Positions 24,001 through 25,537 of a stretch of DNA of 25,537 nt are shown here, in pieces. A program made the position numbers. Numbering within the stretch: the stretch's first letter is position 1; the number at the start of each line of letters is the position of its first letter. Source of the DNA: a virus (lineage: Duplodnaviria; Heunggongvirae; Uroviricota; Caudoviricetes); IMG/VR virus record IMGVR_UViG_2698536454_000004. One strand, written 5' to 3'.

Positions 24001-25537
24001 GCACAAAACAGAACCCAAAATCGTCGCGCCTGGCTACACAGATGAGGAAATTTATGAGTGGATGACAAAGAAGCTGGCAGCTATAAACCAGCTTCGTGAA
24101 GTGCTGTCTTATCGACAGGAAACAATAGACTCCTTAAAAAAACTGGATCAGGAAATCACGGTTTTATCACAGGATGTTACTTTAGATATTGTGCAGACAA
24201 ATTAGGATCCCATTCATTTTCGTCAAAATCATCAAAGTGATGAATTTGTGATCTCCAGTCTCGATAATCTAAAAATTTCTGGGCGGTTACGCTTATTTTA
24301 TCAAGTGTGAGTTCATCCTGAATTGAAAGAAGAAGTTCATCAAATTTCATCTCATTAATCTGTTTTGGCATCCAGTGATGCTTCATCAGAATAAGGTGAA
24401 CCAGAGCCTTTTTCCCATTCAACTGATTATAGGGAGTGCCGAATTTCTTCCGGTGCTCATGTAAGACAAGGTCCAAAAGAGTAAGTAATGTTGCCCTTGA
24501 TTCAACTTTGCTTATTTCGACTGATGACACTACCCCACTGATTTCAATGCCCCGATACTTTCCAACATTTTCACAGTGGGATTTGTACAGCGTATAGATA
24601 TTACCGGACATTTCTTTTCCTTTTGCGTTGTTGGGGATAACCAGATTAACCGAATCCTTGTTGTTGGGGAATAACCAGGTCCACCTCGCCTGATGTGGCT
24701 AAAAGCAGGCACATAACAGCTAAGTATTTTCAACCAGAGAGAATCCTTAGCGTTGTGGTGAATGCGGCTCAGCGCACGCGGGTTAAGGTTGAGGCTGACA
24801 GTCGACCTTCTGTGGATACCCACCCGCCTGGTGTGCAACCTTCGCCAGGCACCGGGAGGCACCCGGCACCACAACTTTATGCTGTGTGTAGTCTTGGCGG
24901 TACCAGCTTGTACCCTTGCTTCCGGCTGGTACCGTCCTTTTTACAAAACAGAGAAGAGCATCACCGGACGACGGGCTCATAACCCAATCCATCCGGGCGG
25001 CAGTCACCGCAGGTGTTCTTCTCTGTTTTGTGGAGAAACTAACCGACCTTGCAGGGTCGATATGATGAGGAGCAGCAAAATGGCTAGCGAACGCAGTACT
25101 GATGTGCAGGCATTTATCGGGGAGCTGGACGGCGGCGTATTTGAAACCAAAATCGGCGCAGTTCTCAGTGAAGTCGCTTCCGGTGTGATGAACACGAAAA
25201 CCAAAGGTAAGGTCTCGCTCAACCTGGAAATCGAACCGTTTGATGAGAACCGAGTGAAAATCAAACACAAACTCTCATATGTTCGCCCGACTAACCGCGG
25301 GAAAATTTCCGAAGAAGACACCACCGAAACGCCGATGTATGTCAATCGCGGTGGTCGCCTGACTATTCTGCAGGAAGACCAGGGACAGTTACTGACTCTT
25401 GCCGGTGAACCTGACGGAAAACTCCGCGCAGCAGGTCGTTAATATCGTTTTTAATTAACTGATTATTTATCTCATCACTGAATATCTTTATATAGTGAGG
25501 ACTTATTATGTCTCAGAACTTAGACGCAACCGCAATT

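What the first reader, a model, noticed from the sequence alone, without database searches (positions are those of the whole stretch)
24700..24942. GC-rich multi-hairpin non-coding stretch ending in a strong plus-strand terminator: candidate prophage sRNA or tL-type terminator
Between the 144-aa gene and the next plus-strand ORF there is about 250 bp with no credible ORF. It contains three consecutive stem-loops (GCCUGG...CCAGGC; CCGGG...CCCGG; GGCGGUACCAGC...GCUGGUACCGUCC) ending in a U-tract. The organisation is reminiscent of prophage early-operon sRNAs such as DicF in Qin, though I cannot establish sequence identity. Alternatively it is the first terminator of the PL operon, read through by antitermination.
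Basis: seen in the sequence. Interest (0 to 1): 0.5.

Follow-up and report, generated by a model that had tools for sequence, protein, structure and literature searches.

The report
Prophage small RNA with built-in terminator
The flagged stretch is a roughly 192-base structured RNA gene of a lambda-like prophage, related to a known but poorly understood family of prophage small RNAs; it ends in its own terminator just upstream of the phage's excision/integration genes, and about a third of complete E. coli genomes carry it without annotation.

Summary
The three hairpins and the U-tract are real. They form the 3' two-thirds of a larger RNA, about 192 nt (24751-24942, + strand).

- **Fold:** a 7-9 bp closing helix, a multi-helix core with a covarying pseudoknot, a 22-nt linker, and a 12-bp terminator followed by five U.
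- **Family:** it aligns end-to-end to Rfam STnc100 (43.4 bits, curated cut-off 47, E 4.7e-8). That family includes the Hfq-binding sRNAs PasD and EcOnc27.
- **Mapped relative:** it shares its boundary sequences with sRNA-17 of E. coli K1, an RNA mapped by RACE and Northern blot that occupies the same site upstream of yfdP.
- **Not DicF:** the DicF model scores 19 bits against a cut-off of 48. It is also not HK022 put.
- **Context:** unlike typical STnc100 copies (own promoter, late region), this one lies in the early-left operon about 0.9 kb downstream of the PL-like promoter, and no promoter of its own was found.

Best reading: an sRNA whose terminator also shields yfdP-xis-int from upstream transcription. 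Expression and targets of this allele are untested.

Verdict: new member of a known kind, moderate interest.

The parts
24719..24751 (+). P0: hairpin GCUAAG...CUUAGC directly 5' of the RNA body. Its last base coincides with the 5' end expected from the mapped homologue.
   Evidence: MFE folds. ST64B has a different hairpin at the same place (UAAGAG...CUCUUA). The sRNA-17 5' end lies at CGUUGUGG.
24752..24760 (+). P1, 5' strand (GUUGUGGUG) of the closing helix, followed by the junction AAU (24761-24763).
   Evidence: Pairs with 24867-24875. The two outer pairs covary across the family (CG/UA/GC and GC/AU). The strand is invariant in all three core types at this locus.
24764..24779 (+). P2 region (GCGGCUCAGCGCACGC). 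It replaces the CCCCC...GGGG hairpin of typical STnc100 copies.
   Evidence: Rfam alignment flags non-standard pairs here. Alignment A4. Folds.
24785..24791 (+). 5' strand of the pseudoknot (AAGGUUG). It can instead pair locally with 24803-24809.
   Evidence: Pairs with CAACCUU in the P5 loop. Cognate complementarity of 6 bp or more occurs in 27 of 32 family representatives, against 18% of non-cognate pairs and 11.5% of shuffled loops. Three of the 4 scored pairs show changes on both sides.
24812..24823 (+). Small hairpin GUGG-AUAC-CCAC in the variable middle of the core.
   Evidence: MFE fold. This region varies in length and sequence across the family.
24826..24850 (+). P5 hairpin (GCCUGGUG / CGCCAGGC). 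Its loop carries the 3' strand of the pseudoknot, CAACCUU (24836-24842).
   Evidence: Seven of 8 pairs change on both sides across the family.
24852..24866 (+). P6 hairpin CCGGG-AGGCA-CCCGG, part of the 22-nt motif CACCGGGAGGCACCCGGCACCA.
   Evidence: Exact motif found in more than 120 viral contigs. It matches the most conserved block of the STnc100 model.
24867..24875 (+). P1, 3' strand (CACCACAAC).
   Evidence: It is also a recombination joint between core and linker modules (L157).
24876..24895 (+). Mostly single-stranded linker (UUUAUGCUGUGUGUAGUCUU), the candidate seed or Hfq-contact segment.
   Evidence: Unpaired or weakly paired in the folds. It differs between alleles.
24896..24942 (+). 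Rho-independent terminator: 12-bp stem (one G-U), 17-nt loop, then U5 at 24938-24942.
   Evidence: Compensatory changes in ST64B. The 3' RACE end of sRNA-17 lies in the U-tract of a near-identical hairpin.
24938..25036 (+). Long, near-perfect hairpin (about 25 bp at its base) that includes the U-tract in read-through RNA. It lies in the yfdP 5' leader.
   Evidence: RNAalifold consensus of five phages and prophages with compensatory pairs. MFE fold.
25080..25442 (+). yfdP (120 aa), the first gene after the element. yfdQ starts at 25509.
   Evidence: ORF list, PHROG 204, RefSeq annotation of identical DNA.
23805..23833 (+). PL-like promoter TTGCCA-17-TAGATT with CTAAG operator motifs, the likely source of transcription entering the element. 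Context only.
   Evidence: Promoter scan. The operator motif is shared with the cro/cI intergenic region. The immunity-module boundary against SfIV lies at about 23847.

Best explanation
Window 24751-24942 (+) encodes a structured RNA of about 192 nt that ends at its own intrinsic terminator.

**What it is.** It is a divergent member of the STnc100 family of lambdoid-prophage small RNAs. It is also the commonest of three interchangeable alleles found at one fixed site in SfV-, SfIV-, ST64B-, mEp460- and e14-type prophages. That site lies between the immunity repressor (plus small accessory genes) and the yfdP...xis-int arm.

**Proposed mechanism.**
1. RNA polymerase arriving from the left transcribes the element. 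The source is the PL-like promoter at 23805-23833, and possibly read-through of the repressor transcript, since no terminator follows cI here.
2. The core folds into a compact domain closed by P1 and locked by a pseudoknot. This domain defines and protects the 5' end.
3. The 12-bp hairpin plus U5 stops most polymerases. This releases the RNA and keeps upstream transcription out of yfdP-xis-int in the lysogen.
4. The released RNA (structured body, 20-nt open linker, terminator hairpin, U-tail) has the anatomy of an Hfq-class regulator, like its relatives PasD1/2 and EcOnc27, and probably acts by base pairing in trans.

**Shown here:** sequence, fold, covariation, family relation, genomic context, prevalence.
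**Taken from a homologue:** a discrete RNA with these ends.
**Inferred:** expression of this allele, termination efficiency, Hfq binding, targets.
For: - **Family match:** full-length alignment to Rfam STnc100, model positions 1-206, 43.4 bits, E 4.7e-8.
- **Shared motif:** the 22-nt core motif is exact in more than 120 viral contigs.
- **Conserved fold:** the family shows covariation. The score is 0.271 against 0.144 +/- 0.010 in shuffles (0 of 500 reach it), and slid controls reach at most 0.164.
- **Pseudoknot:** supported by cognate versus non-cognate loop tests.
- **Same site as a mapped RNA:** the 5' flank plus P1, the 3' strand of P1 and the terminator are shared with sRNA-17. That RNA is 193 nt, mapped by RACE and detected by Northern blot (PMC7719688).
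- **Family properties:** members are discrete, Hfq-associated RNAs in EHEC and EPEC (PMC5331693; PMC8550237; PMC7873438; bioRxiv 10.64898/2026.05.13.724894).
- **Context:** cro, cI, PL, a leader, orf73, an antisense accessory gene, the element, then yfdP...xis-int.
- **Induction of the region:** in ST64B the region downstream of cI rises with prophage induction and falls stepwise along the operon (PMC7067206).
- **Prevalence:** the allele is in 1830 of 5426 complete E. coli genomes.
Against: - The Rfam score is below the curated cut-off (43.4 against 47), and the P2 hairpin differs.
- No sigma-70 promoter was found within about 140 nt upstream. None of the 18 copies of this subtype has one, against 17 of 89 typical copies under the same strict rule. 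The 5' end would therefore have to arise by processing or from an unrecognised promoter.
- There are no expression data for this allele.
- Salmonella transcriptome annotation places an ncRNA (STnc1310) at an earlier terminator in ST64B, not on this element.
- sRNA-17 itself gives no Rfam hit, and its core does not align with this one. Evidence transferred from it covers the boundaries only.
- The linker shows no better-than-chance pairing with the yfdP start region.
- No target is known.
Confidence: 0.6

Rival explanations
1. The element is mainly a cis-acting control point of the early-left operon. The folded core is a leader or sensor that binds a protein, RNA polymerase or a small molecule. 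It decides whether the adjacent terminator fires, and so gates yfdP-xis-int. The released short RNA would be a by-product.
For: - The layout is that of an aptamer-like core followed by a linker and a terminator, placed in front of an operon.
- The core has a conserved pseudoknot and invariant junctions.
- Three different cores share one P1 frame and one terminator at the same site.
- In RS218, replacing the core while keeping the terminator hairpin raised yfdP about 95-fold and also raised yfdR (PMC7719688).
- The K-12 copy ('ymfH') is listed with xisE and intE in the YmfT gene set of PMC12133099.
Against: - Typical family members stand alone behind their own promoters and accumulate as terminated RNAs that bind Hfq.
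- No alternative pairing between the core and the terminator was seen.
- Linker and terminator vary freely between copies.
- The RS218 mutant still carries a chloramphenicol cassette, so read-through from the cassette can explain the yfdP increase.
Confidence: 0.22
2. It is only a tL-type intrinsic terminator of the PL operon that is read through by antitermination. The upstream hairpins would have no function of their own.
For: - The position is downstream of PL and upstream of the recombination genes.
- A 12/12 match to the rrn-type boxA lies near PL.
- Some prophages keep the terminator and downstream hairpin but lack the core (L127, L180, L181, L195).
Against: - The core is conserved with compensatory changes across 43 sequence clusters and several genera. 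A sequence without function would not show this.
- No N-like gene is present.
- From general knowledge, boxA complexes mainly counter Rho-dependent rather than intrinsic termination.
Confidence: 0.1
3. It is a put-like RNA that binds RNA polymerase and makes it resistant to terminators, as in phage HK022.
For: These phages have no N gene. Typical family copies begin right at a promoter, as putL does.
Against: - The HK022 early region contains neither the core motif nor any STnc100 match.
- Family members accumulate as RNAs terminated at their own terminator. Typical copies also sit next to Q antiterminator genes.
- An antiterminator placed behind a promoter that is active in lysogens would switch on lysis genes.
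Confidence: 0.03
4. The stretch is protein-coding: an N-terminal extension of YfdP (226 aa), or a YmfH-like protein as annotated in K-12 and some phage records.
For: An open frame runs 24762-25442. CDS annotations exist in Kati, SfIV and K-12 e14.
Against: - K-12 YfdP is 120 aa, and homology starts 22 nt before its ATG.
- Copies differ by 1-nt and 7-nt indels and by core swaps that ignore the reading frame.
- Substitutions are compensatory in RNA helices.
- YfdP (25080-25439) itself has no Pfam family; the upstream extension was not scanned on its own.
Confidence: 0.02

Closest known systems
STnc100 (Rfam RF02076) and its relatives PasD1/PasD2 and EcOnc27 (sRNA103)
   Same: - Same closing helix UGGUG/CACCA and AAU junction.
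- Same P5 hairpin, and an identical 22-nt block CACCGGGAGGCACCCGGCACCA.
- A linker and Rho-independent terminator follow, giving a total length of about 190-210 nt.
- All are carried by lambdoid prophages of enterobacteria.
   Different: - The score is just below Rfam's cut-off.
- The P2 hairpin is replaced.
- An extra 5' hairpin (P0) is present.
- No promoter of its own was found.
- It lies in the early-left operon next to the immunity region, rather than between Q or stx and the lysis genes.
- This prophage has no detectable STnc100 match (E up to 1) in the 12500-17500 stretch searched, where the late-gene ORFs lie.
sRNA-17 of E. coli K1 RS218 (Sun et al. 2020, PMC7719688)
   Same: - Same site immediately upstream of yfdP in an SfV/mEp460-type prophage.
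- Same 5' boundary sequence (AGCGUUGUGGUGAAUGCG), same 3' strand of P1 (CACCACAAC), and near-identical terminator and downstream hairpin.
- Same length class, 193 against about 192 nt.
   Different: - The roughly 100-nt core between the P1 strands is unrelated in sequence.
- sRNA-17 gives no Rfam match at all.
- The ArcA-bound upstream fragment described for sRNA-17 is replaced here by a 144-aa accessory gene.
DicF (Qin prophage)
   Same: A small RNA embedded in a repressor-controlled early prophage operon. The terminator stem starts with a similar GGCGGUAYCAG.
   Different: The DicF model scores 19.4 bits against a cut-off of 48, and only over the linker and terminator. DicF is 53 nt and has no structured 5' core (DicF properties from general knowledge).
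Short terminated leader RNAs of lambdoid late operons (lambda 6S RNA; StxS of Stx phages)
   Same: In 17 of 89 typical STnc100 copies a consensus promoter lies 5 nt upstream of P1, and the copies that lie between Q and the holin gene are of this kind. Most are followed by a terminator. This gives a short RNA that can serve as a regulator in lysogens, the concept described in PMC7873438.
   Different: The copy studied here is not at a late promoter. No sequence relation to StxS or lambda 6S RNA was tested beyond the negative Rfam scans.
HK022 put RNA and lambda nut/N antitermination
   Same: Structured RNA in an early operon of a lambdoid phage that lacks, or may lack, N.
   Different: The HK022 early region lacks the core motif and gives no STnc100 match. 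There is no N gene and no boxB partner for the boxA found near PL.

Membership tests
STnc100 (Rfam RF02076) | Covariance-model score at or above the curated gathering cut-off (47 bits) | tested here: not met
   43.4 bits, E 4.7e-8 on a 701-nt search, covering model positions 1-206 without truncation. No hit at the gathering threshold.
STnc100 (Rfam RF02076) | Closing helix UGGUG/CACCA around a multi-hairpin core, with the invariant 3' block CACCGGGAGGCACCCGGCACCA | tested here: met
   P1 at 24752-24760 with 24867-24875. The exact 22-nt block lies at 24850-24871.
STnc100 (Rfam RF02076) | P2 hairpin CCCCC-UNNGCGG-GGGG after the AAU junction | tested here: not met
   Replaced by GCGGCUCAGCGCACGC. 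Non-standard pairs are flagged in the Rfam alignment.
STnc100 (Rfam RF02076) | Pairing between the segment after P2 and the P5 loop. This pseudoknot is a feature derived here, not part of the Rfam model. | tested here: met
   AAGGUUG (24785-24791) with CAACCUU (24836-24842). Family-wide covariation.
STnc100 (Rfam RF02076) | Rho-independent terminator 20-45 nt after P1 | tested here: met
   12-bp stem plus U5 at 24896-24942.
STnc100 (Rfam RF02076) | Usual setting: own promoter, between Q or stx and the lysis genes | tested here: not met
   Early-left operon next to cI. No consensus promoter. For the typical setting.
STnc100 / PasD / EcOnc27 | Discrete transcript that binds Hfq | not testable with these tools
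   Known for relatives only (PMC5331693, PMC8550237, PMC7873438).
sRNA-17 (PMC7719688) | Position directly upstream of yfdP in an SfV/mEp460-type prophage, with 5' end CGUUGUGGUG and 3' end in the terminator U-tract | tested here: met
   The boundary sequences are conserved at 24751-24760 and 24925-24942. The RNA ends themselves are inferred.
sRNA-17 (PMC7719688) | Sequence identity over the whole 193 nt | tested here: not met
   Only the first 20 nt or so and the last 75 nt or so align. The core is different.
DicF (Rfam RF00039) | Covariance-model score at or above 48 bits | tested here: not met
   19.4 bits, E 0.13, over 24883-24937 only.
HK022 put RNA | Shared sequence or fold with the HK022 early region that holds putL and putR | tested here: not met
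   No match to the core motif with up to 3 mismatches, and no STnc100 hit in the HK022 early region.
Lambda-type tL terminator with N/nut antitermination | Intrinsic terminator downstream of PL and upstream of the recombination genes | tested here: met
Lambda-type tL terminator with N/nut antitermination | N gene and a nut site (boxA followed by boxB) | tested here: not met
   BoxA GCTCTTTAACAA lies at 23942-23953. No arginine-rich N-like protein was found: orf73 belongs to PHROG 1744 of unknown function and has no Pfam match. No boxB hairpin was seen by eye after boxA.

The most novel reading that the evidence does not exclude
The P1-framed, pseudoknotted core may be an input domain rather than an sRNA body. 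It would bind a protein, RNA polymerase or a metabolite and set the efficiency of the adjacent terminator. The three interchangeable cores found at this one site would then be alternative sensors that gate the excision/integration arm (yfdP...xis-int) of a large class of E. coli prophages, including e14 of K-12. The roughly 95-fold rise of yfdP after removal of the core, with the terminator kept, in RS218 would be its signature.
Probability: 0.12. Interest if true: 0.7.

Novelty: new member of a known kind. Interest (0 to 1): 0.4.

Why it matters
- **Links two literatures.** One is the Rfam family STnc100/PasD/EcOnc27, abundant Hfq-bound RNAs of pathogenic E. coli with no known mechanism. The other is sRNA-17, reported to affect survival of E. 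coli K1 in blood and described at the time as having no Rfam homologue.
- **Exposes an annotation gap.** The allele is present in about a third of complete E. coli genomes. It scores just under Rfam's cut-off, so pipelines instead call hypothetical proteins over it, including ymfH in K-12 e14.
- **Adds a structural feature.** The covarying pseudoknot is not in the Rfam model's consensus structure, and it gives a concrete target for mutagenesis.
- **Suggests a testable role.** The position in front of xis-int points to a role in keeping recombination genes silent in lysogens.

Tried and rejected
- **Rfam at gathering threshold:** nothing in the whole window. The match appeared only in E-value mode.
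- **DicF:** rejected on score.
- **HK022 put:** a search of the HK022 early region for the core motif and an Rfam scan of that region found nothing. putL was located through the published primer. The PL leader of this window was also compared with that region and with putL, again with no significant match.
- **Own promoter:** the consensus scan and a family-wide positional scan found none for this subtype. ATAACA-19-GAGAAT, ending 7 nt before the expected 5' end, was seen by eye but has poor spacing and is not conserved in ST64B or mEp460.
- **Pairing of the linker with the yfdP start region:** no better than dinucleotide shuffles, for this allele or for sRNA-17.
- **Second copy in this prophage's late region:** none.
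- **Known RNA family for the PL leader:** none.
- **Look-ups that failed:** the RS218 genome is not in the collection and Kroger et al. 2012 is not held.
- **Genome-collection pattern scan:** only 6 relevant loci.
- **ST64B ncRNA STnc1310:** it maps to an earlier terminator, not to this element.
- **Literature search for put-like RNAs in lambdoid phages:** empty.
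Full report
**Observation.** The window's right end reads, on the + strand: a P22-Cro-type gene on the minus strand (22827-23027), an HTH plus S24 repressor (23125-23751), a 73-aa ORF, a 144-aa gene on the minus strand (24177-24611), a 468-bp gap, then yfdP (25080-25442) and the start of yfdQ. The stretch 24700-24950 folds 4.4 standard deviations better than dinucleotide shuffles. The consensus terminator scan did not list the last hairpin because its loop is 17 nt.

**What the DNA is.** The 469-bp gap is 100% identical to Escherichia phage Kati and about 98% identical to Shigella phage SfIV. 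It matches 2782 of 5426 complete E. coli genomes. In SfIV the order is Q ... replication genes ... cro | cI | small genes | this gap | yfdP-like ... xis, int. The element therefore lies in the arm equivalent to lambda's PL operon.

Comparison with SfIV helps locate the promoter. SfIV has a different repressor DNA-binding domain and different operators. The right boundary of the immunity module falls at about 23847. Just left of that boundary lie TTGCCA-17-TAGATT (23805-23833) and CTAAG motifs like those between cro and cI. The PL-like promoter is therefore about 0.9 kb upstream of the element, not in the gap. No consensus promoter lies in 24612-24750 on either strand.

**Family.** No Rfam family reaches its gathering score anywhere in the window. 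In E-value mode, 24722-24945 aligns to the whole STnc100 model (RF02076): 43.4 bits against a cut-off of 47, E 4.7e-8. DicF reaches only 19.4 bits against 48, and only on the linker and terminator.

The 22-nt block CACCGGGAGGCACCCGGCACCA is exact in more than 120 IMG/VR contigs. These gave 108 distinct flanks in 43 clusters. Anchored on that block, the sequences show one architecture:
- a closing helix, (N)(N)UGGUG with CACCA(N)(N);
- the junction AAU;
- hairpin P2;
- a variable insert;
- hairpin P5;
- hairpin P6;
- a variable linker;
- in most copies, a terminator.

**Pseudoknot.** The 6-8 nt that follow P2 are complementary to the loop of P5, and the two sides change together. Examples are CCAGUC/GACUGG, AUCAGCA/UGCUGAU, CUGGUGU/ACACCGG, CUAGGC/GUCUAG, AGACUGAC/GUCAGUCU, GCCAGGUC/GACCUGGC, and AAGGUUG/CAACCUU in this window. 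Among 32 representatives, 27 have at least 6 contiguous pairs with their own loop. The figure is 18% with loops from other members and 11.5% with shuffled loops.

I also scored P1, P2, P5, P6 and the pseudoknot together on a plain MAFFT alignment. The covariation score was 0.271 against 0.144 +/- 0.010 in shuffles (0 of 500 reach it), and at most 0.164 in slid controls. Seven of 8 P5 pairs and 3 of 4 pseudoknot pairs changed on both sides. P6 is invariant by construction of the search, so it says nothing either way.

In this window the 5' strand of the pseudoknot can also pair locally with 24803-24809. ST64B keeps the pseudoknot perfect while the local hairpin acquires a mismatch (by inspection).

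**Where the family usually sits.** Neighbouring ORFs of the viral-contig copies fall into Q antiterminators of at least three kinds upstream, and holins, NanS-type esterase or Stx2 subunits nearby (the protein identities are my reading of the sequences and were not scanned against a library). Seventeen of 89 typical copies have a strict consensus promoter, for example TTGACA-18-TAAATT, ending 5 nt before P1. None of the 18 copies of the window's subtype has one.

The literature agrees on several points:
- STnc100 copies are multi-copy in EHEC, are transcribed, and one was detected by Northern blot (PMC5331693).
- EcOnc27/sRNA103, downstream of stx2B, binds Hfq (PMC12711010; PMC7873438).
- PasD1/2 are Hfq-dependent RNAs with many RIL-seq partners (PMC8550237).
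- PasD1/2 were recently linked to STnc100 (bioRxiv 10.64898/2026.05.13.724894).

No function is established for any of them. This prophage has no detectable STnc100 match in the 12500-17500 stretch I searched, where its late-gene ORFs lie.

**The same site in other prophages.** ST64B has the same core, 78% identical, between its repressor and the yfdP homologue sb37. Phage mEp460 and many E. coli prophages keep the same 5' flank (AGCGUUGUGGUGAAUGCG), the same 3' strand of P1 (CACCACAAC), and the same terminator and downstream hairpin, but carry a different core.

That mEp460-type RNA is sRNA-17 of E. coli K1 RS218. The published full-length primers delimit exactly CGUUGUGGUGAAUGCGCAGG ... GGCUGGUACCGCUCUUUU. 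It is 193 nt by 5' and 3' RACE, visible on Northern blots, and higher in stationary phase (PMC7719688). Its authors found no Rfam homologue, and I confirm that it gives none even at E up to 10.

A third core occurs in E. coli and Citrobacter. Among 80 viral contigs with a near-identical yfdP, 60 carry the STnc100-type core, 5 the sRNA-17 type, 11 the third type and 4 none. All three cores fold with the same P1, a 3-nt junction and a P2 hairpin. Some contigs keep the terminator and downstream hairpin without any core, and joints fall at the 3' end of P1. The site therefore behaves as a set of modules.

**Prevalence and annotation.** The 192-nt RNA is at least 80% covered in 1830 of 5426 complete E. 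coli genomes. RefSeq annotates 'hypothetical protein' there. A 92.7% identical copy lies in the e14 prophage of K-12-type strains, between ymfI and xisE-intE. It is annotated as the CDS ymfH, whose GTG start is part of P1. That copy has a 1-nt deletion and a substitution in P6. ymfH is listed with xisE, intE and other e14 genes in the YmfT gene set of PMC12133099. K-12's other SfV-like remnant, CPS-53, lacks the element.

**How it most likely works.** I consider the following account the best supported; steps 1, 3 and 4 are inferred.
1. Transcription enters from the left.
2. The core folds. The 5' end corresponds to the base of P1, as mapped in sRNA-17 and as implied by promoter spacing in typical copies.
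3. The hairpin plus U5 terminates, as the sRNA-17 3' end shows for a near-identical hairpin.
4. The released RNA has the layout of an Hfq-class regulator.

In the lysogen the same terminator would keep PL leakage, or read-through of the repressor transcript, away from yfdP...xis-int. I saw no terminator by eye after cI in this window. In ST64B, read counts fall stepwise from the region after cI to the yfdP and yfdQ homologues, and all rise under peroxide or nitric oxide shock, when the prophage is induced (PMC7067206). This fits a PL-driven, attenuated operon. The ncRNA annotated there (STnc1310) ends at an additional, earlier terminator rather than at this element.

How polymerase passes the terminator during induction is open. 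A 12/12 rrn-type boxA lies at 23942-23953, but no N-like gene was found.

**Rivals.** A cis-sensor role for the core is the most interesting alternative. In RS218 the core was replaced while the terminator hairpin lay within the homology arm, and yfdP rose about 95-fold. The cassette was left in place, however, so read-through from it is an equally good explanation. A put-like role is unlikely. The HK022 early region shows no similarity, and family members accumulate as RNAs ended at their own terminators, with many copies lying next to Q genes. Coding capacity is contradicted by frame-breaking variation and by compensatory substitutions.

**Verdict.** The sRNA interpretation is supported by homology. 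The link to DicF is rejected as family membership but holds as an analogy of position. The terminator reading is compatible with the sRNA reading. The element is a new, sub-threshold member of a known family in an unusual operon position, and an allele of a published sRNA. Its function remains unknown.

Noticed in passing
window 23847-23912 (+): A conserved structured leader sits at the very start of the PL transcript. It has an invariant 30-nt block ACAGGCAGGACGCCCACGAAGUAGCC and two helices with compensatory changes between this window, SfIV, ST64B and K-12 e14. It matches no Rfam family and does not resemble HK022 putL. It occupies the position putL has in HK022, in phages that lack an N gene.
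   Followed up: partly
window 23921-23953 (+): The hairpin AAGCGCCCUACAGGACGCUU is followed at once by GCTCTTTAACAA, a 12/12 match to the rrn-type boxA (consensus from my own knowledge). This lies about 100 nt after the PL-like promoter and ahead of roughly 1 kb of mostly untranslated or antisense RNA. It may protect that RNA from Rho.
   Followed up: no
window 24938-25036 (+): A long, near-perfect hairpin with about 25 bp at its base. It pairs the terminator's U-tract and ACAAAACAGAGAAGAGC with GUUCUUCUCUGUUUUGUGGAGA. It is conserved with compensatory changes in ST64B, Citrobacter and e14. It resembles an RNase III substrate in the yfdP (or, in e14, xisE) leader.
   Followed up: partly
L222 3505-3816 (K-12-type e14 prophage): The annotated gene ymfH starts at the GTG inside P1 and runs over the STnc100-type RNA, its terminator and the long hairpin. 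It is probably not a protein gene.
   Followed up: partly
window 24627-24644 and 24660-24678: Two direct repeats, GTTGTTGGGGA(A)TAACCAG, lie 33 bp apart just upstream of the start of the minus-strand 144-aa gene. They could be a regulator binding site or part of that gene's leader.
   Followed up: no
L125, L177, L213 and other yfdP-linked loci: Three unrelated RNA cores share one closing helix, one terminator and one genomic site. Recombination joints lie at the 3' end of P1 and in the linker, giving a cassette-like arrangement.
   Followed up: partly
window 24785-24809 versus 24836-24842: The 5' strand of the pseudoknot has two possible partners: a local one (UCGACCUU) and the P5 loop (CAACCUU). 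A second copy of this subtype (L014) also has both. This may be a structural switch, or it may be coincidence.
   Followed up: no
L019, L036, L050, L070 (also L075, L012, L123): Some viral contigs carry two family copies in tandem, 484 nt apart in four contigs and 267-922 nt apart in the others.
   Followed up: no
L126 3374-3447 (ST64B): ST64B has an extra terminated RNA, the annotated ncRNA STnc1310, between the PL leader and the STnc100-type element. Two terminators therefore precede its yfdP homologue.
   Followed up: partly
window 24177-24611 (-) and 23984-24205 (+): A 144-aa gene (PHROG 5286) and a 73-aa ORF (PHROG 1744), both of unknown function, lie between PL and the RNA and overlap tail to tail. 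The 144-aa gene is antisense to the PL transcript and has its own minus-strand terminator at 24095-24070.
   Followed up: partly
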